Shown: positions 7,240 through 29,484, numbered from the stretch's first letter. The stretch is DNA of 31,156 nucleotides from Candidatus Thorarchaeota archaeon (GCA_016933575.1 JAFGAR010000125.1:1-31156); one strand, 5' to 3'. Program-made: numbers and translations. The notes: generated by a model from the letters alone, not told the origin.

Positions 7240-7702
7240 AATGAATGAGTATCCGATTTGATTCGATAACGAAAATCAGTTCAAGATCCGTACTGCTTTC
7301 TTCAATCATACTCCGTGATCTTCTCTTCAGATGCGTCAATTCGTTCTATTGACGATAAATAACGAGGTTCGAATACTATATAGTATCAACTTAGCCTAAC
7401 ATTCTACAGATGTCGATGGACATCGAATCACCCTCAAGACACATACCTGAAATAGTATGGGTTCTGTGGGAATTTTGTAAGGGCGTAAGAAAACTAGCCT
7501 CGTTAGCTATTGTGACACTTGGAATTCATAAACTAGTCCTTTGAAAAGGACGGTTTGTGAGTGAATCGAGTCGCAGATACTCTCTGTGTATCGAAGTTGA
7601 TGCTCAGAGAAAACGGATGGTGCTAACTTTATTGCATCATCCTACCAACTTGTTACAATAGTAAAAGAATTATCAAAATATAAGAAAATAGGAGAATTAA
7701 CG

Positions 7703-8263
7703 TTGGATTTTGAAGTAGGATTCCATCAACGGAATAAAGCTTTCAGATACATGGAAAATCCCGCATTAAAGCAATTGCTGGAGTTGATAAAAGATGAAGA
7801 TTACTTTCCTGAGGAATCGAGGAAGAGCAAGGGTGGAAAAAGAAAAAGCGGAGTTCGTGAAATAGCGAAACAGGTTTTCAATGATAGGCTAGCTGATACT
7901 TGGCAATGTGATGTAGAAATATTCGATATTTCCAGTATCCCTGCATCCAAGCTGCATTACCTAAAAGCCAGAGTGGGTGTTGTTCGAAGCTTGCAGCATA
8001 GGACAACGATGGGAACCGACATTCTTAGGCTTGAAGTTGCATACCGTTTTCTTGATATCATTGATATTGGTGTATTCATTTGTGGGACAAGCGGCTTTGA
8101 AAAATACTATCTGGGTACTGAGGATTCTAGGATCGAACATATGGTTATCTTTGAAGAACTTGTTGATTACCTTGAGATGGTTTCTGGTGTTATTACAGTT
8201 CCCATTGTACTCATTGGACTCAAGAAGCCACCAAAACAACGCCAAACCAAACTTCCTAAATAG
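7703..8263 (+). CDS. BglII/BstYI-family restriction endonuclease-like protein, catalytic residues apparently lost
   Basis: HYLKARVGVVRSL...TDILRLEVAY...IDIGVFI...FEELVDYL...ITVPIVLIGL follows the family pattern D..K..V.VEVQF...YD..K.....IDVG.II...FE.L...L....VP...IG. GGAG RBS before TTG. Confidence 0.6.
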   Translation: MDFEVGFHQRNKAFRYMENPALKQLLELIKDEDYFPEESRKSKGGKRKSGVREIAKQVFNDRLADTWQCDVEIFDISSIPASKLHYLKARVGVVRSLQHRTTMGTDILRLEVAYRFLDIIDIGVFICGTSGFEKYYLGTEDSRIEHMVIFEELVDYLEMVSGVITVPIVLIGLKKPPKQRQTKLPK

Positions 8264-8359
8264 GTCATTCCCTGTGTCTGGAATCGGAATTTTCATTCTA
8301 TTGGGTCAGGTGACTTTTTATCAGAGTGATAGTATGAGAAATCGAATTTCAAGACAAAA

Positions 8360-9769
8360 ATGAATGAAGGTTGGTATTGCTATTTGAATGGACCTAGAGA
8401 AACCTCTTCCGATAAAAAAGAACCAGAAATGCTCATCGATGACTCGAGAAATCTGCTAGATATGATGGAGCCCAACTCGGTTGATGTGATAATTACATCT
8501 CCTCCTTATTTTGATGCCAAGGACTATGATGTAGATAATCAGATCGGTTTTGGTCAGACATATGAAGTCTATCTGAATGAACTGGAGAAGGTTCTATCTG
8601 ATTGCTATAAGGTAGCTAAAGATACAGGATCTTTATGGTTGATCATGGATACTGTTGTCCGGGATGGACATATGCATCTCATTCCGTTCGAATTAGCTCA
8701 GAATATGAGTGATCAAACCGATAGTTGGAAGCTAACTGACATTATTATTTGGAATAAGGGGAAATCGTTGCCTTGGACAAAAAAGGGAACTTTTCGTAAA
8801 GTTTCAGAATATATCTTCTTTTTCAGAAAAGGGGAAAATTTCAAGTTTGAAATCGATCGAATAAGGGAACCAGAGATGACCAAGTGGTGGGTTAAATGGC
8901 CAGAAAGATATCATCCACTTGGTAAGATCCCAGGAGATATCTGGAATTTCAGGATACCTACACAAGGTAGTTGGGGCAATGGTTACTTGCGTCATTTTTG
9001 TCCATTTCCACATGAACTGGTTGAGCGTATTGTTTTATTGACCACCGATGAAGGCGACACAGTCTTTGATCCATTTGCAGGTTCTGGGGCTGTTTTAGCT
9101 ACTGCTTACGCTCTTCGGCGAAAAGCGATCGGTATTGAACTAAATCGAGAATATGTTGAGCGATTTTACTCAACTGCATTGCCAGCATTTATCAAGGAAT
9201 ATCAAGATACTCCTCAAAGAAAACTTGATTCACCTGCTCAATCTACTAAATTCGAAAAGATATCTGCTCTGACTCAGCTCAAGTACTCCTTGACTTTTGT
9301 TCAACTCATGTTAGAGCAAAATGATGTTAAACATCAGGAAGGATTTACTTTCTCTCTTTTCATCGAAGTTGATAATGATCGGGAGAAATTCCTAAGTGTT
9401 GGTAATTTCGCGCCTGAGATGGTGATCGTGTCACCAAATGACGAATTCACTCATTTAATCTGCAAACATCGCGATGATATTCTACTCAAATCAAAACTAG
9501 CTTCATACAGGATAGAGGCAAGTATTGATATAATGAATCAATCTGAATTTGAAAAGAGCAGTTTTGGCAAACGGATACTAAAAAAGAATCTTTTCGTATA
9601 TTCCGGAAGCAAATTCTATGACTTTGATATCTCGCTCTCTGAATCCAAATCCTGGAACAAGTATGTAGTTCCAGATCAACCTAAAGTATTTGCTAACATA
9701 TCTATTCGATTGAAAAAGGGCGGAAATGACATTCTGCTCAACGAGTCAAAACACCAATCAGTTCTTTGA
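8360..9769 (+). CDS. Beta-class site-specific DNA methyltransferase (SPPY, probably N4-cytosine) with ~190-aa C-terminal extension
   Basis: NSVDVIITSPPY (motif IV) precedes HFCPFP.ELVER and VFDPFAGSG (motif I), then GIELN. Confidence 0.9.
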   Translation: MNEGWYCYLNGPRETSSDKKEPEMLIDDSRNLLDMMEPNSVDVIITSPPYFDAKDYDVDNQIGFGQTYEVYLNELEKVLSDCYKVAKDTGSLWLIMDTVVRDGHMHLIPFELAQNMSDQTDSWKLTDIIIWNKGKSLPWTKKGTFRKVSEYIFFFRKGENFKFEIDRIREPEMTKWWVKWPERYHPLGKIPGDIWNFRIPTQGSWGNGYLRHFCPFPHELVERIVLLTTDEGDTVFDPFAGSGAVLATAYALRRKAIGIELNREYVERFYSTALPAFIKEYQDTPQRKLDSPAQSTKFEKISALTQLKYSLTFVQLMLEQNDVKHQEGFTFSLFIEVDNDREKFLSVGNFAPEMVIVSPNDEFTHLICKHRDDILLKSKLASYRIEASIDIMNQSEFEKSSFGKRILKKNLFVYSGSKFYDFDISLSESKSWNKYVVPDQPKVFANISIRLKKGGNDILLNESKHQSVL

Positions 9770-10078
9770 TATCTCTGCATCCATAAGGACCCATCCAAAA
9801 AAGAACCATATGCATACAGGCAAATTTGCACCTGGGATTAGTTTAGCTCTCGAAATATTGCATAAGTAGGAAATGCATAACGCTCCTGCTAACTGGTATG
9901 AAATATAAGACCATTTTAGATTAGTTTTAATTATCTACAAGCATAAGGTTCAAAAAGAGGAATGCCAGAACCTTTCCTTGTGGTGGGAAATGTTCGATGA
10001 TATGGCATATATCTATCGAATATCCTTATCTATTCGAATTTCAAAGTCATAAAATGGTTTGAAAATGGGGCTGCGATA

Positions 10079-11854
10079 ATGATGAATACTGAAGACACTC
10101 TACTTAGTTTACAACTATTTTATTCACAAGGTCGTAGAGGTAACTCAAATACGCGAGAAACTCCTAGCGAAGATCCATTTCTCAAGCAAATGTATGTAGA
10201 AACTAATCTAGATAGGAATCTGCTAAGTGACATACTTTCCAATAAATATCACTTGGTAGTAATAACAGGAAATCCCGGCGATGGCAAAACAGCATTTCTA
10301 AAAAGACTTGAAGAAAAGGGAGTAAACGCTCAGGACCGTCCAAATGGCAAAATCTTCAAAGTTCAAAAGTATCCAATTGAGATCAACTATGATGGTTCTC
10401 AGGATCATCAAGATATTGATAACCAGACAATTCTGAAGGAATTTTTCAGCCCTGTAGAAAACGCAATAGGCTCCAGTAAAGCGATAGATCATACTCGTGT
10501 TATTGCGATTAATGAAGGAAGACTACTTCAACATTTGAATCTGAGGGAAGGTAGTAAGCCTCTCTATCCAAAACTACGAGTGATTGTAGAAAACCAGCTC
10601 GAAATGAAAAACGGGTCTAACTCATTAGATGGAACTGTTGTTGTTATCGATCTAAACAAAAGATCAGTTGTAGCGAGAAGATCAAACGATAATAGCTCCA
10701 TCTTAGAAGATATTATTATGAGAATGTCTGAAGAAAAATGGTGGACCTCGTGTAACAGCTGTGAAGTAAGAGAGTACTGCCCTGTAAATATTAATATCTC
10801 AAGTATGAAACGGCAAAAGATTCGTGATAGATTCCGGGAACTCATCAGAATCGCCTCCTTTTGGGGAAAGATGCATATCACTATCAGAGATACTCTTTCG
10901 GCTTTGTCATTTATCTTGTTCGGAGAATCAAGCTGTGAGGACATACGCAAGATACTAACAGAGAAGAACGAAGGCTGGGAAAAATGGGTTGTAGACCAGA
11001 TATATTTCAATTCGATTCTAAACGGAAGTCCGAAGGATCGGATTCTATCTACTACTTCTTTATTTGAGATTTATCGATTTCCAGGAGCTCCTCATCTGGA
11101 CGCAGATGCATTTTTTGGCTTGCCTTCCAAAATTGCTAATAATTATGTATATGAGAAAGACAATTCAGAGATGCTAAGGATTCTCAGAATTCTAGACCGT
11201 CTTTCGTTCTACACAGAAGATGGAAAGAAATCCAAGTACCATTATGAGTCATTGAAGAATATGCTCTTTTTTGAGGGGATTGAAGACATCCATCAAAATC
11301 TAATGCCAGTGAAGCATTACATTTCATTTAAGAACGATATACTGATTGATGTTCTTGGGAATTTACGATTCGATGATTTTAAGGTGAGGAATCAGATCAT
11401 TCGATCATTAAATAAAAGCAGAGGATTGGATGAAAAATCCAACAAGCTTACTGTGGGACATACTGAACATACAAATGGCCATATCATATCATACAATGAA
11501 TTTGACTCAGGATTCTTTACACTTGAAGTTCCACGTGTTGAAGAGCCAATATCTCATTACTGTGAAAACGAGCCAAATTCCCTGATCCTTTGTTATACTA
11601 GAGATTCAAGTACCAGGTGTTCGGAAACACCCATCCGTCTCGTGATCGATCTTGAAATGTATAACATGATACGGGACATAGATACAGGTTATCTTCCAAC
11701 TCGGAATGAACTGGAAGGTAAATTCTACAATCTTGGTATGTTTCTTGAAATGCTAGAAGAGCTTGGAGGAAAGGAAATTCAAATATTCGATACAATCAAC
11801 AAAGAAAAAGCTCAGATACGAGTTACATCTGGACAAAGGGTGGAGGTGAACTAG
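10079..11854 (+). CDS. DptF/DndF-like P-loop ATPase (MAD6 C-terminal ATPase-like, no kinase domain)
   Basis: LFYSQ..RGNSNTR, YVETNLD, Walker A VVITGNPGDGKT, YDGSQD, AINEGRL, DLNKRSVV, Cys cluster CNSCEVREYCP, HITIRD. Confidence 0.7.
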   Translation: MMNTEDTLLSLQLFYSQGRRGNSNTRETPSEDPFLKQMYVETNLDRNLLSDILSNKYHLVVITGNPGDGKTAFLKRLEEKGVNAQDRPNGKIFKVQKYPIEINYDGSQDHQDIDNQTILKEFFSPVENAIGSSKAIDHTRVIAINEGRLLQHLNLREGSKPLYPKLRVIVENQLEMKNGSNSLDGTVVVIDLNKRSVVARRSNDNSSILEDIIMRMSEEKWWTSCNSCEVREYCPVNINISSMKRQKIRDRFRELIRIASFWGKMHITIRDTLSALSFILFGESSCEDIRKILTEKNEGWEKWVVDQIYFNSILNGSPKDRILSTTSLFEIYRFPGAPHLDADAFFGLPSKIANNYVYEKDNSEMLRILRILDRLSFYTEDGKKSKYHYESLKNMLFFEGIEDIHQNLMPVKHYISFKNDILIDVLGNLRFDDFKVRNQIIRSLNKSRGLDEKSNKLTVGHTEHTNGHIISYNEFDSGFFTLEVPRVEEPISHYCENEPNSLILCYTRDSSTRCSETPIRLVIDLEMYNMIRDIDTGYLPTRNELEGKFYNLGMFLEMLEELGGKEIQIFDTINKEKAQIRVTSGQRVEVN

Positions 11855-13465
11855 TTGACAGATCATCACGATCTAATCGTACCAGAAATCTTAGATTTGA
11901 GCCCTCGACAGGTTGTTCTTGAACAAGCCCTGACTGAATTTCTAGTTTCTTTGAAATCAAAAATACCCTCCAAGATACCTAAGAAACGAAGAAATAAGAA
12001 AGATTTCCAATTCTTTCACGTTCTGGAAGACATTCTTGATGAAGCAGAAAAACAACAGGTTAAGAACGAGGAACATGAAGAAACTATTAGATTAGCTTTG
12101 AAGAAGCTTATCACATCAAGTAACAATGCTTTCGGAATATCAGATGCCAAGTTAGATCTTTTTGTGAATTGGATAATTGACAAGCTACTCGTTAGATCTG
12201 GGAAACGCGATAGTAAGGAGTATGTAAGCTTTAGGCCATATCATTTGAAAGCCGCCAAGGTATACCCCAAGGGATGGCATATAGTAGGTCCTTTCTTGTA
12301 TTCGATGATCGCTTCAAATTCTTCTGTAGTTGATGAACTAAGCTCGTATTTTGAGGAGAGCAATAACTTGGGTGCAGAATACAAAGTTCTCTGCAATTTA
12401 ATAGATGCCATCAAATACGAATCCACGCCAAAATCTGATAAGAAGAGCCATCCTTTGTGCAAATCAGCGGCGAATGAATTATGTATGGATATTATGCGGA
12501 TATTGGCGTATGGGAATGAAATTCCCCGAAGGGTGATGACTCGGTTAATTCAAAACTGCTTGCTATTACACATATCACTTTATTTCTTGAGAATTGTCAA
12601 ATTAGTAAACGCCGCGAGCAGTCAATCATTGAAAGGATCCGTCCAACTTCCTTGTAGTACATGCCAATCAACAGAACAATGCCCATATTCTCCAAACATA
12701 TTCATTTCAGTTGAAAAAACCAACAAGGATATCGCAAAAAGATCAAGGATTCGTCTACATGAACACAGAGATGAAATTAACTTGTTTGTTAAGAACTTAA
12801 TTCGAATCCGAAAATTGTACGATTTTTGTCTGAAGAAATCGATATGCAAACAAGGATCCTTTGATCTTAAGGTTGTATTAGAGAGCCAGAGGAATAAAAT
12901 GTCTAAAACACATTTCAAAGCATTGATAAAAAGCTACATAACTTCAGGTAAAATAACATTTTCAAAGGAACAACAAAGGGACCTCTTGAAATCATCTTCA
13001 CACCCCTTAGAGAATTACGTTGAAGCGCTCAATAATCATCATTTCAGAAATGGTACAAGGCGGCATCGTGAATGGTATGAGCAGGTTGCTTCAAATGGAA
13101 ATCAGGGATTCGTCCGAGTAGGCGCACGAGGACAACAAAGGGGTTATCACTCAAATGCAGATCTTCTAAAGCTTCTAGTGCTGCTGATTTCTACAGAAGA
13201 AATCGAATCAGAAGGGCAAAACCCTAGTTTTCGAACACAAAGATACATGACACTCGAAGAATTTTGTAATATCGCGGCAAAGAAATATGGTATTCTATTC
13301 CACAAATGGAACCTTTCTGCTGATATGACTTTTTCAGATCTATCTTTTATTGATGAAAACATGGAAGATCTGAAAAATGCACTTACGAAATTGGGAATGT
13401 TTCGAAGGCAGTCTGATGCAACCACGTTACAATTCATTCAACCTCGTTATCAAGTAGGTGATTAG
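11855..13465 (+). CDS. DptG/MAD7-like protein
   Basis: Abuts the upstream stop (TAGTTG) with GGAGGTG RBS. RPYHL, CSTC..CP, KYGI and C-terminal LGMFRRQSDA...IQPRY, which I recall as the DptG/MAD7 terminus. Lies between the F-like and H-like genes. Confidence 0.62.
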   Translation: MTDHHDLIVPEILDLSPRQVVLEQALTEFLVSLKSKIPSKIPKKRRNKKDFQFFHVLEDILDEAEKQQVKNEEHEETIRLALKKLITSSNNAFGISDAKLDLFVNWIIDKLLVRSGKRDSKEYVSFRPYHLKAAKVYPKGWHIVGPFLYSMIASNSSVVDELSSYFEESNNLGAEYKVLCNLIDAIKYESTPKSDKKSHPLCKSAANELCMDIMRILAYGNEIPRRVMTRLIQNCLLLHISLYFLRIVKLVNAASSQSLKGSVQLPCSTCQSTEQCPYSPNIFISVEKTNKDIAKRSRIRLHEHRDEINLFVKNLIRIRKLYDFCLKKSICKQGSFDLKVVLESQRNKMSKTHFKALIKSYITSGKITFSKEQQRDLLKSSSHPLENYVEALNNHHFRNGTRRHREWYEQVASNGNQGFVRVGARGQQRGYHSNADLLKLLVLLISTEEIESEGQNPSFRTQRYMTLEEFCNIAAKKYGILFHKWNLSADMTFSDLSFIDENMEDLKNALTKLGMFRRQSDATTLQFIQPRYQVGD

Positions 13466-13466
13466 T

Positions 13467-16400
13467 ATGGCTGAAGGCAATTATTTAGATGTAGGACGAG
13501 ATGTTATAGTCGAAAGTCTTCTGGATAAAACAAAAGGGGCATGTATTCTCATTACTGGTTTGCCGCATGATGACTGCGTAGAGCTCAGTAAGCAGGTAGA
13601 AAAGGCATATATTGCATCAAAAAGAGGTTTGAAACTCAAATGTTGTGTTGTATCTGATGAATCTTCAAATAAACAGAGCTCTCTTATTGTTACATCTACT
13701 AAGGTGATCGAACTAAGGAATCTAACAAAAGAACAAGCTCCACCAGATATTCTAACCGTTTTTAAACCGCAAGGGGCAATTAGCGATGCTGACGATTCAT
13801 TCGGACCTAATAACTTTCTTCAGTTATCCTCAGATGCGATTTGGACGAAGGGCTTAGATTCCACTATGAAAAAGGCACTCAAAGATTTGACACAGGTAGA
13901 GAAAAGAAATCTACGAACAGTTATGAAAAGCTCTCCCCTGATTGATTTATACTCTCAAGTTGGGATAGATTTCTTGCTGAAATTCATTCAAGAATCGGAC
14001 CATAACAATTTCATCAAGTCAAACTTGACTTGTATTGGCTTATTCAATGATAGCGAATTGAACTTCGAGGATGATCCAGACAAGTTTGCCGAGCGACTAA
14101 AAAGAAACAATGACTTTCTCGAGAAATTTCCATCCAAATCCACCAGCACAATCACAAAGATCTTGAGAGATAGTGTATCTGATACAGAATCAGTAGTATA
14201 TAAGGAGCTCAAGAAGTATTTCAAAGATAAGAATCGACACTCACTTCATGAGGATATTAGGAATAGTCCCCCAGGAGTTGACTTTGCCAAGATACTTCCA
14301 TTACTTGGAAAACCAGAGAAACTAGTTTTTAGTTGGTCTCCAAAACCTCAACGGATATCTAAATTATTCGATGTCGGTTGGAGACTACGCCCTAAGCAAC
14401 CCCACAAAAAAATCCGGATATCAATTGCTACTATTATAAATGAGGTTGAAGAGAATGAAGTCGATATAAAAACAGTAGATGCTGATGATAAGACTGCTAG
14501 AATAGATATCAGAAGCTACTTGGATAATCATGAATCTGATGTTTATCGCCTCTATCTTACACTATTGCACGAGAATGGTTCTCCTGAAACCAAACTTGAA
14601 GCTGATATTCGAGAAGATGGAAGCGCTGATGAAACAAACATGACTACTCACTCCTTACATTCAGCTCTTTTTGCTTTCCTAAAACACTGTAGAAAAACAA
14701 AGGGTCAAGCTATCGGTGATCTAAAGATAGAAGAGCTAAATGCTAATGGAGTAGATGTTCGGATAAGTTCAGCTAGTTTAGATCAGGACGAAACATACCA
14801 ACTGAATCTAGATGATGCTCTATGGAAATATGAACAGATAGTAGTTGGTGAACCTGACTATATAGGTCCATACGTTGCATCAAAACGCTGGATTCGCGAT
14901 CCTGCTGCGGCAAATAAACCCAAACGACTAATAACGCTTAATCATACCGAAATAACTCAAAACCTGCAAAGTATCAATGAAGATCTGGTTAGCAAGTATA
15001 GTGAGTTTGTTGAAGCTAGGAAAAAACTGTTTAAGGTGATAAAAGAGCGACCTATTCAAAGCATATCTCTTCTATCGAAAGAAAAGGATAGAGAACTGCT
15101 GATAGACGACTACACAACCAAGTACTCTGAGTTGCTATCAATCCTTTATGAGTCTCTAGTATCTATGAGTGGGAGTTCTATTCGTTCAATGAAAGATATT
15201 CTTCACTATATTCTATCTTGTGATATCCTATATATAAAAGAAAATTCGAATTTGGTATCTCTAATCCCTCCATCTAATCCAACGCGACTTTCATGGATTA
15301 AAGAAACTGAATTAGCAATTCTTGAGATTAAGGAAAGCATTGATTCTGGCGATATTAGCTCCAAGAAGAGCAAAACACTACCCAGTATTAACAATCTGTC
15401 ACTTGAAGGCATACTTGGGAGTATAATTCCTCCTGTGATTTGGACTCCCATGGAACAAGATCCAGATCATGTGTGTTTGTTTCGAGGTACAGTTAATGAC
15501 ATGTGGGCAATTCTTTCGAATCCTAAAGGCGATTCTCCTTTGCTTGCCCAGGAAATTATGGGATACCTGACTAAATCTTTGGATTATGATGTTGGTGCAA
15601 GCGATAGTAGAATATTACGGAAACGGATAAGAAAGTACCTTGATATCTATCCTCACATTGATACAATAGTAATCAATGCAATCAATCCCGGAAGTGGAAG
15701 CTCTGTATTGGATGCGATCCTTAATTTACCTGAGGAACAGCACTCAAGGAATTTCAGGATCAATCTTCTTTCTTTTGAAATGTCTAATAATATCGACACT
15801 CAAATCGGAGCCTCTTTTGACAACCTCATGAAGGATCCTTATCAAAATGAACGAACATCCAATCTCTTGGAAGAACACAGCAATCCATTGATACCAGGTC
15901 TTAGATACTCAAAGAAATGGATAAAAAGAGGTGAATTCACAGAGATCCCACTTGCACACATATCAATTCTCTTTGACTCCTTTTCAGAAAGAGTTGCAGT
16001 TGATACAATTGATGTAGGCGAACTAATAGCGTCCACAACGAGCGATGGTAGACTCGCTCAATTCGACAGCAAATATTCTGAAGGAACTCAAAGTGTCTGG
16101 ACACGAGCAGTCCACTTCAGTGATTCAGATAGTGAAAACAATTCCCTTCTCAATAAGTATTCAGAATGCATTGTAAAATGCTATAAAACAGCTAGTGATA
16201 CACAAGTAATTGGTACCAGAATATCTCTGCCCAAACAAGAGAAGGATTATCTCGAGAAGATATACAAAAGATCTGATTGGGTCATACTTGTTGACAGATA
16301 CATCGGTATTGAGATGCTAGATAGAAGTTTTGAAGAGTCCAAGCCTCGATATTTGATCGATTATGCTCCAGAATTCCAAGAGGAGTTAGGCTATCGAATA

Positions 16401-18410
16401 ATCACAAGCACTGAAAGTACCAAAGCCATTACAGATCAGGTTTCAGAAAGACTTTCTGACTATTCTTGGTACGCCGATTCACATCTTAACAAAGTGATAG
16501 ATGCGCTAAATTCCCTCTCAGGCATTCTATTAATGAAATACATACAGACAAGAAATCTTTCTTCAGAAACAACTACTCTTGCTTTGGCAATGCTGGCTTT
16601 GAAAGAATGGAACAACCAAGCTAAGGACACGAAGATTGTGATAGTGCCGATCGATGCCTATCAAGATCTTTGGTTTGAGGACTCTCCGAGTAAAAAGGCA
16701 GAAAGAGCTGACCTATTGGCTATTTGCATATCCAGATCTGGCGATGTCAGTTTCACAATGATCGAAAGTAAATGTGAGAATAGCAAATCACCTATCTTTC
16801 CACAAAGGCAGAGAGCAAGACGGCAACTTAGAACTGGGAAGAAATACTTAGAACGAAGGTTCAATCTAAAAAGCAATCGTTTTCTTCATGAGATGACACG
16901 TTCTGAATTATTTGGGATCATTCGATTCCACTTTGAGAAGCAGAAACGATTTGGACATGTTATGTCATTTGACTCAATTGATGAAATTGATCTTTTCAGA
17001 AAAATCCGCACAAATCTTCTTGAATCCTCTTTTGAGGTAGATTTTGATACAATCACACTATATTTCATTCCCAAAGCGAAACCAAGATCTTACTCACTAA
17101 CAGATCCTGATGTCGTCATAGCAGATGAATCTATGTGTACGGGGATAATTCAGGAGGATGTCAAAAAATCTACTGAATTGATCGACAATCTTGTAGGCTC
17201 AAGGTGTACTAGTAAATCAAAATCCCCTCTTGAGGAAAAAGACGAATCTACTTATGATGAATCAGATGGAAATAAAGATCTCTCTACCGATTCCGAGATG
17301 CAACATGAAGAAACACCAAAGCAATCCCAGAAGGAACACACCAAAAGGAAAAAGCCCACAGATGCATTCAATGATATACTTCTGGGATATCGGCGTGACA
17401 AGGAAATTACTTGGTCTCCCTATGATGGGGCTAGTCCACATCTAATAATCGTAGGAATGACGGGTGTTGGCAAGACACAAACTATGAAGGCAATAATTGA
17501 GGAATTGGATCTGAATGGTGTTCATTCTCTTATATTCGACTTTAATGATGACTATATCGATGATGAATTTGTAGAGCGAGCCGATTGTGTTGTGCTGAAT
17601 GCTGCAGATGGCTTAGATCTGAACCCTCTTGCTATTGGGGAGAATAAAATGAACACCTCATATGAAGTGGCTGGGATTATTGCTAGGGTATATGATTTAG
17701 GAAAACAGCAAGAACGTACACTGAGAAACGCAATCAAGGAAGCCTATGATACAACTGAAGAGCTCCCTTCATTTGGACGCATTGGAGATATTTTGCGAGA
17801 TTGGGCCGAGAATTCGGATTCGGCAAACAAGAGAAACACTGCTGATTCTCTGCTAGGAAGAATAGAATCATTGTTCGACTTCGGTATATTTGGTGGTACC
17901 GATGTGAATCTACTCCAACGAATATTCCATAAGACACATGTCATCCGCCTTCAAACACTGAAGGCCGATCCCAAAGATGCATTGAAGAATGCGGTTGTCG
18001 AACTAGTTTTGAATCACCTTCAACAAGAAATGTATGCAAGAGGGCACAGTGATATGGCTGTGTACTGCATGGTAGATGAAGCACATCGTTTGACCTATAA
18101 GAACTCCCCAATTCCCAAACTCGTTCGAGAAGCCCGCAAATACGGAGTTGGAATCATTCTCAGCTCACAGATGGTGAAGGATTTCGATGATGAAGTTCTC
18201 TCAAATATAGGTGCCACAATCGCCTTCAAAGTCAGTTCAGATGAAGCTACAAAAATCGCTAAATCTATGACGAGTTTAAGAGAGGATCAGCTCGATATAA
18301 TTACGAAACTGTTAACTCTTCCTAGATTTGAAGCGATAATACGATCTCAAAAATATCCTGATTATACCGAGGTGAAGATCCTTCCCTTTTTCCAAAGGCA
18401 AGATAATTAG
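13467..18410 (+). CDS. DptH/MAD8-like giant protein: PD-(D/E)xK nuclease motif plus C-terminal HerA/FtsK-type ATPase
   Basis: IELRN, PPSNPTRLSW, INAINPG, SDWVILVDR, LIDY, RADLL...IESK, Walker A HLIIVGMTGVGKT, Walker B MVDEAH, REARKYGVGIILSSQ. AGGTGA RBS before ATG 13467. Confidence 0.75.
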   Translation: MAEGNYLDVGRDVIVESLLDKTKGACILITGLPHDDCVELSKQVEKAYIASKRGLKLKCCVVSDESSNKQSSLIVTSTKVIELRNLTKEQAPPDILTVFKPQGAISDADDSFGPNNFLQLSSDAIWTKGLDSTMKKALKDLTQVEKRNLRTVMKSSPLIDLYSQVGIDFLLKFIQESDHNNFIKSNLTCIGLFNDSELNFEDDPDKFAERLKRNNDFLEKFPSKSTSTITKILRDSVSDTESVVYKELKKYFKDKNRHSLHEDIRNSPPGVDFAKILPLLGKPEKLVFSWSPKPQRISKLFDVGWRLRPKQPHKKIRISIATIINEVEENEVDIKTVDADDKTARIDIRSYLDNHESDVYRLYLTLLHENGSPETKLEADIREDGSADETNMTTHSLHSALFAFLKHCRKTKGQAIGDLKIEELNANGVDVRISSASLDQDETYQLNLDDALWKYEQIVVGEPDYIGPYVASKRWIRDPAAANKPKRLITLNHTEITQNLQSINEDLVSKYSEFVEARKKLFKVIKERPIQSISLLSKEKDRELLIDDYTTKYSELLSILYESLVSMSGSSIRSMKDILHYILSCDILYIKENSNLVSLIPPSNPTRLSWIKETELAILEIKESIDSGDISSKKSKTLPSINNLSLEGILGSIIPPVIWTPMEQDPDHVCLFRGTVNDMWAILSNPKGDSPLLAQEIMGYLTKSLDYDVGASDSRILRKRIRKYLDIYPHIDTIVINAINPGSGSSVLDAILNLPEEQHSRNFRINLLSFEMSNNIDTQIGASFDNLMKDPYQNERTSNLLEEHSNPLIPGLRYSKKWIKRGEFTEIPLAHISILFDSFSERVAVDTIDVGELIASTTSDGRLAQFDSKYSEGTQSVWTRAVHFSDSDSENNSLLNKYSECIVKCYKTASDTQVIGTRISLPKQEKDYLEKIYKRSDWVILVDRYIGIEMLDRSFEESKPRYLIDYAPEFQEELGYRIITSTESTKAITDQVSERLSDYSWYADSHLNKVIDALNSLSGILLMKYIQTRNLSSETTTLALAMLALKEWNNQAKDTKIVIVPIDAYQDLWFEDSPSKKAERADLLAICISRSGDVSFTMIESKCENSKSPIFPQRQRARRQLRTGKKYLERRFNLKSNRFLHEMTRSELFGIIRFHFEKQKRFGHVMSFDSIDEIDLFRKIRTNLLESSFEVDFDTITLYFIPKAKPRSYSLTDPDVVIADESMCTGIIQEDVKKSTELIDNLVGSRCTSKSKSPLEEKDESTYDESDGNKDLSTDSEMQHEETPKQSQKEHTKRKKPTDAFNDILLGYRRDKEITWSPYDGASPHLIIVGMTGVGKTQTMKAIIEELDLNGVHSLIFDFNDDYIDDEFVERADCVVLNAADGLDLNPLAIGENKMNTSYEVAGIIARVYDLGKQQERTLRNAIKEAYDTTEELPSFGRIGDILRDWAENSDSANKRNTADSLLGRIESLFDFGIFGGTDVNLLQRIFHKTHVIRLQTLKADPKDALKNAVVELVLNHLQQEMYARGHSDMAVYCMVDEAHRLTYKNSPIPKLVREARKYGVGIILSSQMVKDFDDEVLSNIGATIAFKVSSDEATKIAKSMTSLREDQLDIITKLLTLPRFEAIIRSQKYPDYTEVKILPFFQRQDN

Positions 18411-18460
18411 GGGATCACACTCCCTATCGATTCAGATAGGATGCACATTGAGCTGATAGC

Positions 18461-19366
18461 ATGAACGGAAAGAACAACTCCTTTCAAGAATCTCCACGGC
18501 CAATCATGAAATGGGCAGGGGGAAAACGTTCACTTCTTCCTACTCTATTGAATAACTTGCCAAGCACCTTCGGAGATTATTATGAACCGTTCTTTGGAGG
18601 TGGTGCTTTTTACTTTAAGTTATATAAGGAAGACTTCGTCCGGAAGGCAACTATTTCTGATTTGAACGCTGATTTGATTTGGTTGTATACCGTTATTAGA
18701 GATAAACTGAATGAATTCATAGATTCTTTTGATCTCACCTACTTCGTAAGTACAAAAGAACGATTTTACAAGATCCGTTCTGAATTCAATAGGGCAAAAG
18801 CCTCAAAGGAAAGGTCATTAATTCAAGCAATCAGATTGATGTATCTAAACAAGACTTGCTTTAATGGACTATATAGAGTAAATAGCAAGGGTGAATTCAA
18901 TGTTCCCTATGGCGGCTACAAAAACCCCTCCTTCTACGATGAGGATAATTTGAAAGAGGTAAGCAAAGCACTAGGTTTTGCTGAAATAAGATGTCAGGAT
19001 TTCGAAACTGTAGTTCAATCATCCTCCAAAGGGTCCTTTGTTTATTTTGATCCTCCCTATGCCCCACTAAGCGATACGGCGGATTTCACTTCCTATACTA
19101 AGGCCGGGTTCAGTTTTTCGGAGCAGGAGAGACTTGCGAAAGTCTTCGAATCTTTAGATAGAAAAGGTTGCTTTGTAATGGAGAGTAACTCAGCAACAAA
19201 AGCAATTCGTGATCTTTATTCTCACTTCAATATATTGGAGGTCAATGCAAGTAGGGCTATCAGTGCTGATGGATCCAAGAGGGGGAAAATCAGTGAACTC
19301 CTGATAACTAATTATGAAGCCACCGCCTTAACGCGCAAGCAGACTCTTCTTTCTGATTATGGGTAG
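18461..19366 (+). CDS. dam: Dam-family (D12, alpha class) DNA adenine methyltransferase
   Basis: MKWAGGK, YYEPFFGGGA, LNKTCFNGLYRVN..G.FNVPYG, FVYFDPPY, SNS, ELLITNY. Confidence 0.93.
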   Translation: MNGKNNSFQESPRPIMKWAGGKRSLLPTLLNNLPSTFGDYYEPFFGGGAFYFKLYKEDFVRKATISDLNADLIWLYTVIRDKLNEFIDSFDLTYFVSTKERFYKIRSEFNRAKASKERSLIQAIRLMYLNKTCFNGLYRVNSKGEFNVPYGGYKNPSFYDEDNLKEVSKALGFAEIRCQDFETVVQSSSKGSFVYFDPPYAPLSDTADFTSYTKAGFSFSEQERLAKVFESLDRKGCFVMESNSATKAIRDLYSHFNILEVNASRAISADGSKRGKISELLITNYEATALTRKQTLLSDYG

Positions 19367-19436
19367 CATTTGATATGGATTCCACTAGATTTTTCATCAA
19401 GTTATCCTCTAATGAATATTAGTTGGAGGTATAACT

Positions 19437-20012
19437 ATGGAGAATGATCGTAATGAAACTAGGATCGGAAAAATTAGTAATCTTCTCTCCCAATCTCTGA
19501 TAGAGTTCGAAGCACTCCCTAAGACTTTCAAAATACCTCAAGCAAATGATATAATAAAGGTTAGGGATTTTCCGGTAGCCGTTTCATTTGGATATGATGA
19601 TAGTAGGAAAATTGCAAGATATTTTGAATTCGATAAGAGGCAAAGCTCCTACTATCGAGATGCTGCACAGGGGCTAGGATTTGTTGAACTTGATCATCGT
19701 AATAAATACAAATTAACATCACTGGGAGAATGGTATTCTAAACTGAATACAAAAGAGAGAAACCATGTCCTTGTTAGAAGACTTGCTAAGCATCCTATCA
19801 TGGCTGAGATACTAGCGACACTGAATAAAGGCCAAGAGGTGACAATGTCTGATATTGAACAAATAATATCTAAGCATTCTTCATTGGGAGGGAGCACCAT
19901 TCCCAGAAGAGCATCAACTATTCTTAGTTGGTATCGATGGATCGAAATGGAAATCGGTTTGATTTCAGTTTGTAACGGAGTAATCTCGCCAAATGTTCAA
20001 ACTCGCCTTTGA
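19437..20012 (+). CDS. Stand-alone winged-helix protein resembling the C-terminal domain of Dam-associated restriction-like proteins (DUF7226-like, tentative)
   Basis: IPQAND...FEFDKRQSSYY.DAA..LG...YKLT.LG and ST..RRASTI.SW..W. GGAGGT RBS. Confidence 0.6.
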   Translation: MENDRNETRIGKISNLLSQSLIEFEALPKTFKIPQANDIIKVRDFPVAVSFGYDDSRKIARYFEFDKRQSSYYRDAAQGLGFVELDHRNKYKLTSLGEWYSKLNTKERNHVLVRRLAKHPIMAEILATLNKGQEVTMSDIEQIISKHSSLGGSTIPRRASTILSWYRWIEMEIGLISVCNGVISPNVQTRL

Positions 20013-20699
20013 TGGTGTTGATCTTCAAATTGGTGTAGCCACAATTGAATCTGGATGATCTCTAATCAGCTATTAATAACATGAACATTAAAACGAAGCT
20101 GACAATATGTCTTACTGAGGATACTGTGAAACTGCGAGTCTATTGGCCTCAATGGCAAATAGCATATCTAATAAGCAGTATGATACAAAGAGGAATTTTC
20201 GAATTCTCATGAAACAGGACAACCCCAAATACAACCCCAAACATCAGATCTGCTACGAGATCTTGATATCATGAGAAAGACATCAATTAGTAGTTTTAGA
20301 ATTGTATTTGATACGATTCATTCGATATATTTAGGTGAAGATCCCCTCTAATTCAGAGCTGAATTGACCATTTTGTCATATCAGAATACACGGCATAACG
20401 GATTTGCAAATCTCTGCTTTGTCATCTGTTCATCGCTATGCAGGAAATAAATGCAAGGTCTACATGGATCGTCAGGCTACTAGAAAATCTCTCATGGGAT
20501 CTATCAGGATTATCAGTGCCCTGGCGAAACCTATAGAACTACTTCTTCATGAAGCAAATAGCATGACAACATCTTCGCCTTATATTCGGAAACAAAGAAA
20601 AACCTAAAGAGCCGCACCACCTCATGAAAATGATGCAGCGCGTTCAATTGCTCTCGAAGACTCAATCTATGAGCAATATAATACTAGGAGCGATAAAGA

Positions 20700-22043
20700 A
20701 TGGATGAAAAGAAACCTTCTCTAAAAAAGGAGGTCGATGCATGGATTTCCAAGAATTCTGAGAATCTGCTTTTTCTCGAGTGCACTATTTTTTGGAGTAA
20801 ATGTATTGTACACTACCCAAATATTGTATCACCTGAAATAATTGGTGATGTCGTATCAAATCTATCCTCGCGTTTCCAAGAGAAATCGATCACTGAAACA
20901 ATGGGAGGTATATTGCACGAGCTACGGAAAATTGGGATAGAATCACCAGATCGACTCTTAGCAGAAGCAAGAAAAGCATTGAATAAATATGGATTGAAGC
21001 GTCTCATGAGTAATGTCCGTAGTAATTCTTCTGCTAATAGTGACTATAAGCGAGTGCTGCAGCTATTTGCAGAATTTATCGACAGAGAGGATCTATGGGG
21101 TACTGATCTAGATGTATTTAGTGTCACCAAATTGAATTCACTACTGAAAGTTTCGAACCTATTTGACTGTGAAGAATTACAGAAGAAGGGCGGGATTTAC
21201 AGGATCCATAGCTCTAAGGAGCAAAAAGCTGTATACATTGTTCCGCCGCATATTTCGTTGTATCTATATGAGATATTTGATATTGAAGAGGATATCATTT
21301 GCCCTCACTGTGATAAGGTCTTTGACACTGAAGAGGATCTTGAAGCACACGTATCGACATGCCCAAACTTACCAACTATTGTTTCACCAATACCTAAGTG
21401 TGAAAAATGCGGTTTGGAATTCAAATCTGAAACAGATCTTGAAATTCATCTGCATCAACATCATATGGAAATAGATGAATTACCACATCCCCCCTTTCCA
21501 AAATGTAGCGATATAGGATGTGGGGCTTCATTTTTAGTTAGGGCTAATTTCAGGAGACAAGACGCTCATAGATATCTTAAGGCAATTCTCGAAACAGCGA
21601 AAGAATACGTTAAAATTCAAGACAACTATTTACTCAGTGATTCTTTTCAATATTTACAATACATAGAGCCTAATGTATCAATATACCTACTTACTCACTT
21701 TAAGAAGGATAAGGATCTATTTCGGAACATGACGAAATTTTCTGCAATAATAGAAGAATTGGATCAACTGAAGAAAAAGGGGCATTCAGTTAAAGTAGCA
21801 CATATGAAATCCTCCGCTGTTCATGATAGATTGATCATCACTGAAAACTACTTATGGGGCCTATCAAATTCACTTCATGCTTTGGGTGGTAGTAAAATAT
21901 CTTCGGTCTTCTATATTCCGATAGATCAGAAGCAATACATTGAGCGAGCTTTCGATAACTATTTCAAAAATGCCAAGAAGCTCAGCTTGACTGATCTTGA
22001 GGACCTCGGCAATAATCTATCAGTTGGATGGTACAGGGAGTAG
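20700..22043 (+). CDS. Zinc-finger (C2HC + C2H2) protein with C-terminal PLD-like domain
   Basis: CPHCDKVFDTEEDLEAHVSTC and CEKCGLEFKSETDLEIHLHQHH; C-terminal VKIQDNYL...HDRLIITENYLWGLSNSL. GGAG RBS. Confidence 0.65.
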   Translation: MDEKKPSLKKEVDAWISKNSENLLFLECTIFWSKCIVHYPNIVSPEIIGDVVSNLSSRFQEKSITETMGGILHELRKIGIESPDRLLAEARKALNKYGLKRLMSNVRSNSSANSDYKRVLQLFAEFIDREDLWGTDLDVFSVTKLNSLLKVSNLFDCEELQKKGGIYRIHSSKEQKAVYIVPPHISLYLYEIFDIEEDIICPHCDKVFDTEEDLEAHVSTCPNLPTIVSPIPKCEKCGLEFKSETDLEIHLHQHHMEIDELPHPPFPKCSDIGCGASFLVRANFRRQDAHRYLKAILETAKEYVKIQDNYLLSDSFQYLQYIEPNVSIYLLTHFKKDKDLFRNMTKFSAIIEELDQLKKKGHSVKVAHMKSSAVHDRLIITENYLWGLSNSLHALGGSKISSVFYIPIDQKQYIERAFDNYFKNAKKLSLTDLEDLGNNLSVGWYRE

Positions 22044-22197
22044 TCAGTTCAAAATTTCGTTAGTACATCCGACACGAATTTGAAAGAACACTGATTCTTA
22101 GAATGAGAACTCGCAAACAGATTGTACCAGATCTCATCAAGATATCATTTGAAGGTCCTTTGATTCTAGTTAATTGCTATAGGAGTAGTATGAATAT

Positions 22198-28598: not shown

Positions 28599-28751
28599 TA
28601 GATAACCTCCTTTGATGCTCAAATACTATGAACGTATGAAGCTGTGCACTATGGTGCTATGCTTCTGCCTCCATTACCACATCCTATACTGTGCAGAACT
28701 TACCAATAATCTCATTGATGGAAACTTTCCACACTTTAGGAAAGTGTTTCA

Positions 28752-29318: not shown

Positions 29319-29484
29319 TGAAAAACCTCGAAGAACCTTTGGATAGTATGCACATATGATATAATGAAGAAACTATCCTGCTGGGTTACAACAATATCAA
29401 ACCCCGAAATCCCCCTTTTGCTCTTCGAAGCGGAATCAGGTAATCGTACTCCTGTGGTAATCGCTCACCAGTCTTTTTCGGGTT

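What the first reader, a model, noticed from the sequence alone, without database searches (positions are those of the whole stretch)
7703..20012. Kinase-less MADS/DndFGH-like restriction module paired with two ordinary DNA methyltransferases: candidate new archaeal defence system
Seen: seven co-oriented genes in an AT-richer block: dead BglII-fold protein, SPPY beta-class MTase, ATPase (591 aa), 536-aa protein, 1650-aa nuclease-ATPase, Dam and a wHTH protein. The last three core genes are tightly coupled. Known: a three-gene core of this type is the restriction arm of phosphorothioate systems (DndFGH, which need dndBCDE) and of MADS (MAD6-7-8, which has a Ser/Thr kinase in MAD6 and type I-like MTase and specificity subunits). 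Here no dnd modification genes, HsdM/HsdS or kinase are visible. Inference: the FGH-type machine has been re-coupled to m6A and m4C marks laid by type II-like MTases, giving a distinct subtype.
Basis: partly seen in the sequence, partly recalled or inferred. Interest (0 to 1): 0.9.

Follow-up and report, generated by a model that had tools for sequence, protein, structure and literature searches.

The report
FGH defence core inside methylase module
An archaeal defence island carries an intact, deep-branching relative of the known DndFGH/MADS DNA-restriction machine, sitting inside a separate two-methylase module that also exists without it in related archaea, so the proposed new methylation-coupled system is possible but not shown.

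Summary
In detail: seven co-oriented genes lie at the stated coordinates, and an independent assembly confirms their order. F, G and H are true homologues of MAD6 (ATPase half), MAD7 and MAD8/DndH. Nuclease and HerA motor motifs are intact. Both methylases keep catalytic motifs. The BglII-fold protein lacks the acidic catalytic residues. No dnd/ssp genes or MADS-type methylase/S subunit were found in the 85%-complete assembly.

Lacking the kinase is not distinctive: kinase-less forms exist elsewhere and branch basally. Archaeal and stand-alone DndFGH are already published. The four accessory gene families (BglII-like, N6_N4 methylase, Dam, DUF7226) lie side by side in a related archaeon with no FGH. 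The Dam–DUF7226 pair recurs in four lineages. None of 13 other related cores has alpha- or beta-class methylases: eight have a gamma-class methylase, usually with an S subunit, four have none and one has a C5 methylase.

Best reading (about 0.5): an FGH cassette nested in an autonomous, degenerate type II-like module. True coupling to Dam or the beta-methylase is about 0.35. The MADS precedent and a 50-bp terminator-free H–dam junction favour it. Earlier scan notes on other DNA reported C5-methylase-linked and methylase-less FGH trios.

The parts
7703..8263 (+). BglII/BstYI-fold protein without the canonical catalytic residues (H85...V94-x-S96 in place of D...E-x-Q/E). It belongs to a conserved subfamily, so it is probably a DNA-binding pseudo-nuclease or a non-canonical enzyme.
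   Evidence: Pfam PF09195 1.2e-10. Homologues at 74% and 63% identity, one named by NCBI as a BglII/BstYI family endonuclease of a Thorarchaeota MAG. Alignment A3 against canonical members. Members of the same subfamily lie beside DndA/DndE/DndD/DndC in G015 and G021.
8360..9769 (+). Beta-class N4/N6 DNA methyltransferase with intact motifs and a 200-aa C-terminal region that matches no family.
   Evidence: Pfam N6_N4_Mtase 4.5e-47; PADLOC MTase_II 1.8e-48. SPPY at 47 and FAGSG at 239. Residues 270-469 give no Pfam hit.
9770..10078 (.). 309-bp spacer before F, probably holding the promoter of the F-G-H(-dam) unit.
   Evidence: Sequence inspection found no T-run of 5 or more and no strict TATA match. 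That it holds a promoter is inference only.
10079..11854 (+). F subunit: a DndF/SspF/MAD6-core P-loop protein (Walker A GNPGDGKT at residue 64) without the N-terminal NERD and kinase modules.
   Evidence: PADLOC SspF 1e-26, DndF 1.9e-10, no mad6 hit. tblastn aligns residues 6-547 to the C-terminal half of kinase-bearing MAD6 (L016, 3.5e-56) and to kinase-less F (L015, 4.7e-52).
11855..13465 (+). G subunit: a member of the MAD7 family. DndG-type proteins are described as triple winged-helix DNA binders.
   Evidence: Precomputed Pfam PF26611 MAD7. NCBIfam MADS7 7.8e-48, but 164 bits is below the 410-bit cut-off. PADLOC SspG 7.9e-8 and mad7 1.2e-6. The exhaustive search found 82 clusters, with the best full-length relative at 26% identity. 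The triple-wHTH fold comes from PMC10853773 and was not modelled here.
13458..18410 (+). H subunit: a MAD8/DndH-type giant protein. It has a conserved N-terminal region, a central methylase-like region without catalytic motifs, a PD-(D/E)xK nuclease (D1085, E1103, K1105) and a HerA/FtsK motor (Walker A 1333-1339, DEAH 1540-1543, R1560, Q1571).
   Evidence: PADLOC DndH 6.5e-47 and mad8 7.5e-31; NCBIfam MADS8 N-terminal 4.9e-19. PDB DptH ATPase domain 7es4 9.4e-17. Invariant columns in the seven-protein alignment A5. No [SDN]PP[YFW] motif. The central-region model (pLDDT 62) matches Rossmann SAM-methyltransferases only weakly, E 1.6e-3 to 3e-2.
18411..18460 (.). 50-bp H-dam spacer with no oligo-T run and no TATA-like box, which suggests read-through transcription of dam with F-G-H.
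   Evidence: Sequence inspection. Co-transcription is inferred; no RNA data were available.
18461..19366 (+). Dam-family (alpha-class, D12) N6-adenine DNA methyltransferase with intact motifs. Its specificity was not determined; GATC or a GATC-containing site is likely.
   Evidence: TIGR00571 4.6e-90; Pfam MethyltransfD12 4.5e-66. FFGGG at 44 and DPPY at 197. Homologues at 39-59% identity sit next to DUF7226 genes in G076, G008 and a Thioploca MAG.
19437..20012 (+). DUF7226 protein: two winged-helix domains arranged like the DNA-recognition domain of type IIS enzymes (FokI, N.BspD6I), with no nuclease domain. It is the conserved partner of Dam-family MTases.
   Evidence: Pfam DUF7226 2.1e-22; PADLOC REase_II PDLC03513, C-terminal part only, 1.4e-6. 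AF2 model pLDDT 84.8. Foldseek top hits FokI, N.BspD6I and BpuJI at E about 0.01. By VIA-align, FokI (Z 9.6, 155 residues) and N.BspD6I (Z 8.9, 150 residues) are the only listed matches that align about 150 residues across both domains at low rmsd.
20700..22043 (+). C2H2 zinc-finger protein with a VPA1262_N / PDC-S05-like C-terminal domain. It is a co-oriented neighbour 687 bp downstream in the same AT-rich block; whether it belongs to the unit is uncertain.
   Evidence: Pfam zf-C2H2 1.1e-7; NCBIfam VPA1262_N_dom 1e-7; PADLOC PDC-S05 8.5e-7.

Best explanation
The locus is a mosaic of two known kinds of defence module. Module 1 (10079-18410) is an intact, deep-branching member of the DndFGH/SspFGH/MAD6-8 superfamily. 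F is a P-loop nucleotide-binding sensor that lacks the optional NERD and kinase add-ons. G is a MAD7-type DNA binder. H combines a catalytically inactive methylase-like DNA-recognition region, a PD-(D/E)xK nuclease and a HerA/FtsK translocase. By homology it works as an ATP-driven complex that translocates on DNA and nicks or cuts invading DNA. Module 2 is split around it: a BglII-fold pseudo-nuclease plus beta-MTase on the left, and Dam plus a DUF7226 recognition protein on the right. It is a type II(S)-like restriction-modification module that exists on its own in related archaea. Here it appears degenerate, with two active methylases but no protein that has a canonical nuclease active site. 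The F-G-H cassette most likely inserted between the two methylase genes of this module inside a defence island, and the two modules are not obligately dependent. Shown: homology, intact motifs, gene order, autonomy of module 2 elsewhere, and absence of dnd/ssp and MADS-type M/S genes. Inferred: the insertion history, the biochemical activities, and that F-G-H does not need the neighbouring methylases.
For: FGH identity: PADLOC and NCBIfam hits, full-length tblastn to MAD6-core, MAD7 and MAD8 proteins, and invariant nuclease and motor residues. Autonomy of module 2: in G076 the N6_N4 MTase, Dam, DUF7226 and BglII-family genes are contiguous (L031 7807-10861). In G008, Dam, an N6_N4 MTase and DUF7226 lie together. 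Neither genome has MAD7. A bacterial Thioploca contig has a DUF7226 protein followed 14 bp later by a Dam at 45% identity. Among 13 other related FGH contexts, none has alpha- or beta-class MTases: 8 have a gamma N6_Mtase, 6 of them with a called or annotated S subunit, 4 have none and 1 has a C5 MTase. FGH cores without any modification partner are common (L022-24, L050-52, L055) and are published as a stand-alone system (PMC10853773). A Priestia plasmid has a complete Dam + AlwI type IIS R-M directly upstream of dptFGH, so Dam-type R-M beside FGH has arisen independently as plain adjacency. The core is rare and patchy: 0 of 86 genomes in the class, 2 of 400 in the phylum, 82 clusters in 1.84 billion proteins. 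GATC is less depleted in the island than in the genome (0.89 against 0.60). Both points fit recent horizontal acquisition.
Against: The two methylases have no evident active cognate nuclease, because the BglII-fold protein lacks D/E catalytic residues and DUF7226 has no nuclease domain. The module therefore has no restriction arm other than F-G-H. dam follows H after 50 bp with no oligo-T or TATA-like element, and all genes are co-oriented, as expected for one operon. Most relatives of this core (8 of 13) carry an embedded methylase, and the nearest one, L017, has M and S between G and H. MADS is experimentally methylation-dependent (preprint 10.1101/2023.03.30.534895). The beta-MTases of G076 and G008 belong to a different N6_N4 subfamily from the window's, and gene orientations differ, so 'the same module' holds only at family level. 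The insertion scenario rests on one genome with all four families and cannot be dated.
Confidence: 0.5

Rival explanations
1. One reading: one integrated system. The F-G-H machine uses N6-adenine marks from Dam, N4/N6 marks from the beta-MTase, or both, as its self label. DUF7226 and the BglII-fold pseudo-nuclease might act as site-recognition adaptors. That would make a MADS-like subtype whose type I-like M+S arm has been replaced by type II-like methylases.
For: MADS shows that a MAD6-8 core can be keyed to m6A. 8 of 13 related cores have an adjacent methylase, and in L017 it lies inside the core. FGH cores also occur with PT modules and, in L019, beside a C5 methylase plus Vsr (the scan notes are leads only), so partner swapping has precedent. 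The H-dam spacer is 50 bp and terminator-free. No active cognate nuclease for the MTases is visible. No gamma-MTase/S of MADS type and no dnd/ssp genes are in the assembly. dptFGH without its modification genes is harmful in Salmonella (review PMC12707154), so some self-protection is expected.
Against: There is no recurrence: no other sampled FGH core has Dam- or beta-class MTases. The accessory genes cluster without FGH in G076, G008 and Thioploca. The core branches outside the methylase-coupled MADS clade, so a methylation-dependent ancestry is not shown. H shows no sequence similarity to either MTase that would suggest shared target recognition. Stand-alone FGH systems are common.
Confidence: 0.35
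2. A classical phosphorothioate-dependent FGH whose dnd or ssp modification genes lie in the unassembled roughly 15% of the genome.
For: The MAG is 85.5% complete. F scores best against SspF. Two genomes of the same family carry full dndCDEA-pbe clusters.
Against: No DndC or DndD above cut-off. The only PAPS-reductase proteins are a lone PUA-PAPS-reductase-ferredoxin fusion and a 308-aa protein with no Dnd or Ssp hit. dnd was seen in only two sampled genomes of the family (G015, G021), and no systematic dnd search of the family was run. Only 316 of 1798 FGH-bearing taxa have all eight dnd genes.
Confidence: 0.03
3. A decaying, non-functional remnant island: F-G-H and the methylases are relics with no present defence role.
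For: The BglII-fold protein lacks catalytic residues. DUF7226 lacks a nuclease domain. The arrangement has been seen only once.
Against: All seven ORFs are open. Every invariant nuclease, Walker A/B and arginine-finger position of H is kept. Both MTases keep their catalytic motifs. The H...V/L-x-S form of the BglII-fold protein is conserved across a subfamily at 61-74% identity, which argues for selection.
Confidence: 0.07

Closest known systems
MADS (methylation-associated defence system, mad1-mad8, Pseudomonas aeruginosa SMC4386; preprint 10.1101/2023.03.30.534895, PMC13662399)
   Same: F, G and H are homologues of the MAD6 ATPase half, MAD7 (Pfam PF26611) and MAD8. The three genes are tightly coupled in the same order, and active DNA methylases are adjacent. 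The published MacSyFinder model makes only MAD6-8 mandatory and mentions multiple subtypes.
   Different: MAD6 here has no NERD or kinase part. There is no gamma-class MAD2 methylase, no S-like MAD5 and no MAD3-MAD4 (ATPase-Toprim) module. NCBIfam MADS7 scores 164 bits against a 410-bit cut-off, and the PADLOC mad6 model does not hit F. The core branches outside the clade of MADS-type cores. The methylases are alpha- and beta-class type II-like enzymes.
Stand-alone DndFGH as described by Rakesh, Aravind and Krishnan 2024 (PMC10853773)
   Same: A three-gene F-G-H unit without dndABCDE, present in archaea. F has no kinase add-on. H has a nuclease plus a HerA/FtsK motor and a methylase-like region without catalytic motifs.
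   Different: G is closer to MAD7 than to DndG models. That paper describes no flanking by active Dam- and beta-class methylases. Sequence identity to any relative is at most 26-29%.
SspABCD-SspFGH (PMC8092258) and DptFGH/DndFGH of Salmonella and E. coli B7A
   Same: F scores best against SspF models (1e-26), H against DndH (6.5e-47), and the DptH ATPase domain structure 7es4 matches at 9.4e-17.
   Different: No ssp or dnd modification genes were found in the assembly. PT dependence is therefore unlikely.
Type II/IIS restriction-modification modules with Dam-family methylases (for example DpnII-type two-methylase systems, from general knowledge, and the Dam + AlwI pair beside dptFGH on Priestia plasmid NZ_CP026738)
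   Same: A Dam-family methylase is paired with a protein carrying a FokI/N.BspD6I-like recognition domain. A second beta-class methylase and a BglII-family protein are also present. The same four families are contiguous in the related archaeon G076.
   Different: Here no partner has a canonical nuclease active site, and the module is split by the F-G-H cassette.

Membership tests
MADS | Homologues of MAD6, MAD7 and MAD8 in one cluster (the mandatory genes of the published detection model) | tested here: met
   tblastn of F, G and H against MAD6/7/8 of eight or more loci, E down to 3.5e-56, 7.7e-31 and 2e-83. Pfam PF26611 on G. However, NCBIfam MADS7 is below its cut-off and PADLOC mad6 gives no hit.
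MADS | MAD6 carries Ser/Thr kinase (and NERD) domains | tested here: not met
   F is 591 aa with no Pkinase or NERD hit. It aligns only to the C-terminal half of kinase-bearing MAD6.
MADS | Gamma-class N6 methylase (MAD2) with an S-like specificity protein (MAD5) | tested here: not met
   None in the window. tblastn with 5 M and 4 S proteins from MADS-type loci finds nothing in the genome. The only N6_Mtase + Methylase_S pair is an ordinary M-S-R type I system on C113.
MADS | MAD3-MAD4 ATPase-Toprim nuclease module | tested here: inconclusive
   No Toprim protein in the island. The convergent Rad50-like gene hits PADLOC mad3 at 4.3e-21 but is paired with an Mre11-type phosphoesterase on the opposite strand.
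MADS | m6A-dependent self/non-self discrimination | not testable with these tools
   This needs a methylome and restriction assays.
DndFGH / DptFGH | F with a P-loop (kinase-like) core and an intact Walker A | tested here: met
   GNPGDGKT at residue 64. PADLOC DndF 1.9e-10 and SspF 1e-26.
DndFGH / DptFGH | H with an active REase domain followed by a HerA/FtsK ATPase | tested here: met
   Invariant D1085, E1103-x-K1105, Walker A, DEAH, R1560 and Q1571. DndH 6.5e-47. 7es4 at 9.4e-17.
DndFGH / DptFGH | H with a catalytically inactive DAM-like domain and TRDs | tested here: inconclusive
   No [SDN]PP[YFW] motif in H. The model of residues 450-1300 has pLDDT 62 and matches Rossmann methyltransferases only at E 1.6e-3 to 3e-2.
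DndFGH / DptFGH | G as a triple winged-helix protein | not tested
   Taken from PMC10853773. G was not modelled here.
DndFGH / DptFGH (PT-dependent form) and SspFGH | Cognate dndABCDE or sspABCD modification genes in the genome | tested here: not met
   No DndD (best hit 19 bits) and no DndC (45 bits against a 290-bit cut-off). The PAPS-reductase hits are not DndC or SspD. Caveat: the genome is 85.5% complete.
Type II R-M of BglII/BstYI type | Endonuclease with the catalytic D...E-x-Q/E/S triad | tested here: not met
   H85...V94-x-S96 at the columns where canonical members have D...E-x-[E/Q/A].
Type II R-M of BglII/BstYI type | Adjacent beta-class methylase with intact motifs | tested here: met
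   SPPY and FAGSG. It starts 96 bp downstream of the BglII-fold gene.
Type IIS FokI/AlwI-like endonuclease | Tandem winged-helix recognition domain | tested here: met
   FokI Z 9.6 over 155 residues and N.BspD6I Z 8.9 over 150 residues. Foldseek probability 1.0 at E about 0.01. The scores are middling, but the alignment covers both domains.
Type IIS FokI/AlwI-like endonuclease | Fused cleavage domain | tested here: not met
   The protein is 191 aa, and the model is all winged-helix apart from a disordered N-terminus.

The most novel reading that the evidence does not exclude
The F-G-H machine of this Asgard-type archaeon reads marks laid by a Dam-family and/or a beta-class type II-like methylase. 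The DUF7226 recognition protein and the BglII-fold pseudo-nuclease might serve as site adaptors. That would be a fourth kind of modification partner for FGH-type restriction cores, after phosphorothioate, gamma-class m6A with an S subunit, and C5 methylation. It would show that these cores can be re-keyed to almost any DNA mark.
Probability: 0.35. Interest if true: 0.6.

Novelty: new member of a known kind. Interest (0 to 1): 0.42.

Why it matters
How FGH-type restriction machines without phosphorothioate genes tell self from foreign DNA is an open question. One school calls them stand-alone sensors, while MADS shows methylation dependence. This locus offers a compact, testable case: a kinase-less core with two simple type II-like methylases next to it. 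If the Dam enzyme recognises GATC, ordinary dam+ and dam- laboratory E. coli strains provide a ready-made test. It also documents a deep-branching archaeal lineage of the family. A side result is a conserved BglII-fold subfamily without acidic catalytic residues that accompanies both phosphorothioate and methylation modules. If the modules are independent, the locus is an ordinary example of defence-island nesting.

Tried and rejected
- The word-based homologue search with G found only the query itself. With H residues 1-1300 it found one distant relative.
- The metagenome scan with H found no relative.
- The genome-contig scan with DUF7226 found one locus.
- phmmer and a three-sequence profile of the BglII-fold protein did not reach BglII or BstYI in the PDB. 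The catalytic positions were therefore mapped against canonical family members from genomes, not against a solved structure.
- BLASTP of H against Dam and the beta-MTase found no similarity.
- F has no PDB sequence match.
- Foldseek of the DUF7226 model and of the H central model gave no match at E <= 0.001. The weaker rows were used with caution.
- No RNA holder was listed for the stretch, and the two metatranscriptome runs of the same study gave no laid contigs, so nothing can be said about expression or operon structure.
- No tRNA gene is in the window. No integrase was seen, so the island borders were not defined.
- The empty-site search with the Rad50-like protein failed because that gene is itself absent from all 27 same-genus genomes.
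- Complex prediction was not used. I do not claim any specific protein contact, and adjacency alone is not a reason to run it.
- PADLOC and DefenseFinder system-level rules could not be run; only their HMMs were available.
- A recalled alignment of the BglII sequence from memory was discarded in favour of the tool alignment.

Full report
**Observation**

The seven co-oriented ORFs are at the coordinates given.

- 7703-8263 encodes a BglII-family protein (PF09195, 1.2e-10).
- 8360-9769 encodes a beta-class N6_N4 methylase, with SPPY at residue 47 before FAGSG at 239.
- 18461-19366 encodes a Dam-family methylase (TIGR00571, 4.6e-90), with FFGGG at 44 and DPPY at 197.
- 19437-20012 encodes a DUF7226 protein.

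The three central genes are packed tightly. F-G have a 0-bp gap and G-H overlap by 8 bp. dam follows H after 50 bp, DUF7226 follows dam after 70 bp, and 309 bp separate the beta-methylase from F.

The block has 38.3% GC against 42.3% for the genome. A 29.4-kb contig made by a different assembler from the likely source sample (a sediment metagenome) covers 7000-22500 without a single difference, so the gene order is real.

The genome is archaeal: ribosomal protein S3Ae is present, and the control rings only in archaea. The contig belongs to the lineage, because its left-flank gene has homologues at 43-55% identity in 15 of 27 same-genus genomes. The closest named homologue of the BglII-fold protein comes from a Thorarchaeota MAG.

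**The core is a true FGH/MAD6-8 machine**

- F hits PADLOC SspF (1e-26) and DndF (1.9e-10).
- G hits NCBIfam MADS7 (7.8e-48, though 164 bits is below the 410-bit cut-off) and carries precomputed Pfam PF26611 'MAD7'.
- H hits DndH (6.5e-47), mad8 (7.5e-31) and the solved DptH ATPase domain 7es4 (9.4e-17).

tblastn aligns F over residues 6-547 to the C-terminal half of kinase-bearing MAD6 proteins, and equally well to kinase-less F proteins. It aligns H over 1049 residues to the H of locus L017 (2e-83).

In an alignment of seven H proteins, the invariant positions include the nuclease triad D1085...E1103-x-K1105, the Walker A motif (G1333-K1339), DEAH (1540-1543), R1560 and Q1571. H has no [SDN]PP[YFW] motif. 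A mediocre model of residues 450-1300 (pLDDT 62) matches almost only Rossmann SAM-methyltransferases, and weakly. That is consistent with, but does not prove, the inactive methylase-like domain described for DndH (PMC10853773).

**Absence of other modification arms**

- The 85.5%-complete assembly has no DndD, and no DndC above cut-off.
- Its PAPS-reductase proteins are a lone PUA-PAPS-reductase-ferredoxin fusion and an unrelated 308-aa protein.
- tblastn with five methylases and four S subunits from MADS-type loci finds nothing.
- The only N6_Mtase/Methylase_S pair belongs to an ordinary M-S-R type I system on contig C113.

**What is already known**

Rakesh, Aravind and Krishnan (PMC10853773) report several relevant points.

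- Only 316 of 1798 DndFGH-bearing taxa have all eight dnd genes.
- DndFGH occurs in numerous archaea.
- The S/T/Y kinase is an occasional N-terminal fusion to DndF.
- DndFGH is best seen as a stand-alone system.

The MADS preprint shows m6A-dependent discrimination. Its detection model makes only MAD6-8 mandatory, and it mentions several subtypes. So 'kinase-less', 'archaeal' and 'without dnd' are not new in themselves.

**Contexts of related cores**

The G family is rare. It has 82 clusters among 1.84 billion representatives, and the best full-length relative is 26% identical. It is absent from the 86 other genomes of the class, and occurs in 2 of 400 genomes of the phylum.

I sampled 13 other contexts.

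- Eight have an adjacent gamma-class N6 methylase: L008, L015, L016, L017, L018, L053, L054 and L056. Six of these also have a called or annotated S subunit.
- In L017 the methylase and S lie between G and H.
- Four have no methylase: L007, L022-24 with UvrD, the haloarchaeal plasmids L050-52 with DruA, and B. thuringiensis pKK1.
- One, L019, has a C5 methylase plus Vsr.

Kinase-less F occurs in L015, L017 and the haloarchaeal plasmids. No other context has alpha- or beta-class methylases.

A concatenated F-core+G+H tree was rooted on a Priestia DptFGH. It puts the window as the deepest branch on the MADS side, outside a 95-99% supported clade of all MADS-type cores, with kinase-less L017 next. 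An AU test does not reject a window+L017 clade (p = 0.28). The branches are long, so the placement is approximate. It does show that the core is not a recent MADS derivative, and that the kinase-less state is probably ancestral.

**The accessory genes form their own module**

DUF7226 occurs in 4 of 400 genomes of the phylum.

- In G076 the N6_N4 methylase, Dam (39% identical), DUF7226 and a BglII-family gene are contiguous within 3 kb (L031 7807-10861).
- In G008, Dam (59% identity over the fragment at the contig edge), an N6_N4 methylase and DUF7226 lie together.
- Neither genome has MAD7.
- In a bacterial Thioploca contig, a 301-aa protein with a C-terminal DUF7226 is followed 14 bp later by a Dam that is 45% identical.

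The DUF7226 model (pLDDT 85) consists of two winged helices. FokI (Z 9.6, 155 residues) and N.BspD6I (Z 8.9, 150 residues) are the only listed matches that align about 150 residues across both domains at low rmsd. Foldseek also ranks FokI, N.BspD6I and BpuJI first. DUF7226 is therefore a free-standing DNA-recognition module of type IIS style, not a nuclease.

A caveat applies. The second methylase of G076 and G008 belongs to a different N6_N4 subfamily from the window's, so the module is conserved at family level only.

A Priestia plasmid carries a Dam-family methylase and an AlwI-family type IIS endonuclease directly upstream of dptF-dptG-dptH. Dam-type R-M next to an FGH core has thus arisen at least twice.

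**The BglII-fold protein**

Canonical members from other genomes of the phylum read D-F-x-K...V-G-x-E-V-[E/Q/A]-F. The window protein and its 61-74% identical relatives read H85...V94-x-S96 at those columns.

The same H...L-x-S form occurs in G015 and G021. There the gene sits directly beside DndA, DndE, DndD and DndC, with PbeA and PbeC. It is therefore a conserved, non-canonical subfamily that accompanies different DNA-modification modules, not a one-off decay.

**Weighing the two readings**

For independence (nesting):
- Module 2 exists without FGH in relatives.
- No related core has Dam- or beta-class methylases.
- Stand-alone FGH cores are frequent.
- The core branches outside the methylase-coupled clade.
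- H shows no sequence similarity to either methylase.

For coupling:
- MADS provides an experimental precedent, and most relatives carry an embedded methylase.
- The terminator-free 50-bp H-dam junction and the common orientation fit a single operon.
- Neither the BglII-fold protein nor DUF7226 can supply a canonical nuclease, so the two active methylases have no restriction arm other than F-G-H.

GATC is the most depleted 4-bp palindrome in the genome (observed/expected 0.60) but is less depleted in the island (0.89). That fits long exposure of the lineage to GATC-directed restriction and recent arrival of the island. It does not separate the two readings.

I put nesting of two autonomous modules at about 0.5, true coupling at about 0.35, and the remainder on decay or a hidden PT module.

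**Comparison and novelty**

The core works like DndFGH/MAD6-8 and belongs to that superfamily. It fails the specific MADS features (kinase, MAD2/MAD5, MAD3/4) and the PT-dependent Dnd/Ssp feature (modification genes). It is best filed as a new, deep-branching archaeal member of the stand-alone/variable-partner FGH kind.

The arrangement with alpha- and beta-class methylases is unique in my sample but has been seen only once. Earlier notes of this scan on other DNA reported FGH-like trios fixed to C5 methylases plus Vsr, and several methylase-less trios. My L019 and L022/L050/L055 contexts agree with those leads.

The claim of a candidate new defence system is thus reduced to a testable hypothesis about partner swapping, and the interest is moderate.

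Noticed in passing
window 22198-28622 (- strand): The Rad50-like, Mre11-like, HerA and NurA genes that converge on the island are not the lineage's housekeeping repair operon. The Rad50-like protein has no match at E <= 1e-30 in any of 27 same-genus genomes. It hits PADLOC LmuB (1.6e-31) and mad3 (4.3e-21). Other HerA- and Rad50-like genes lie on C64 and C131. In L018 a Metallophos + SMC pair follows MAD8 directly. This may be a defence-associated ATPase-nuclease set.
   Followed up: partly
L047 (G015:C12) 8379-8885 and L048 (G021:C61) 6132-6662: BglII-fold proteins of the same non-canonical subfamily (H...L-x-S) sit directly beside complete archaeal dndCDEA clusters. PbeA/PbeC were identified only at the G015 locus. 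This suggests a conserved pseudo-nuclease accessory of DNA-modification modules.
   Followed up: partly
L017 10001-20318: A kinless... kinase-less MADS-type locus in which the N6 methylase and the S subunit lie between MAD7 and the H gene. Its H is the nearest relative of the window's H.
   Followed up: partly
L050-L052 (haloarchaeal plasmids NZ_CP087722, NZ_CP098517, NZ_CP127176): A DruA/DUF4338 gene is followed by kinase-less F, G and an H annotated as 'DNA translocase FtsK'. It lies next to a divergent DEAD/DEAH helicase operon, with no methylase annotated. This is a Druantia-linked FGH arrangement.
   Followed up: no
L057 (Priestia megaterium plasmid NZ_CP026738) 7130-20613: A Dam-family double methylase and an AlwI-family type IIS endonuclease lie directly upstream of dptF-dptG-dptH. 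No dnd gene is annotated within about 11 kb upstream or 5 kb downstream of the core.
   Followed up: no
window 20700-22043: A protein with C2H2 zinc fingers (Pfam 1.1e-7) and a C-terminal VPA1262_N / PADLOC PDC-S05-like domain lies in the same AT-rich block, 687 bp after DUF7226.
   Followed up: no
whole genome G000: GATC is the most under-represented 4-bp palindrome (observed/expected 0.60; the next lowest are GGCC at 0.73 and TATA at 0.78). In the island the ratio is 0.89.
   Followed up: partly
window 5296-6762 (- strand): A 488-aa protein with two CasR/Csa3-like winged-helix regions (PADLOC CARF3/CasR 5e-9 to 6e-8) lies just left of the island. Cas1, Cas2 and a CARF-like gene lie at 28752-30821.
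   Followed up: no
G000:C7:21739-23709 (L001 694-2664): A lone PUA + PAPS-reductase + 4Fe-4S ferredoxin fusion that scores 179 bits against PADLOC BrxP. It has no BREX, Dnd or Ssp partners nearby.
   Followed up: partly
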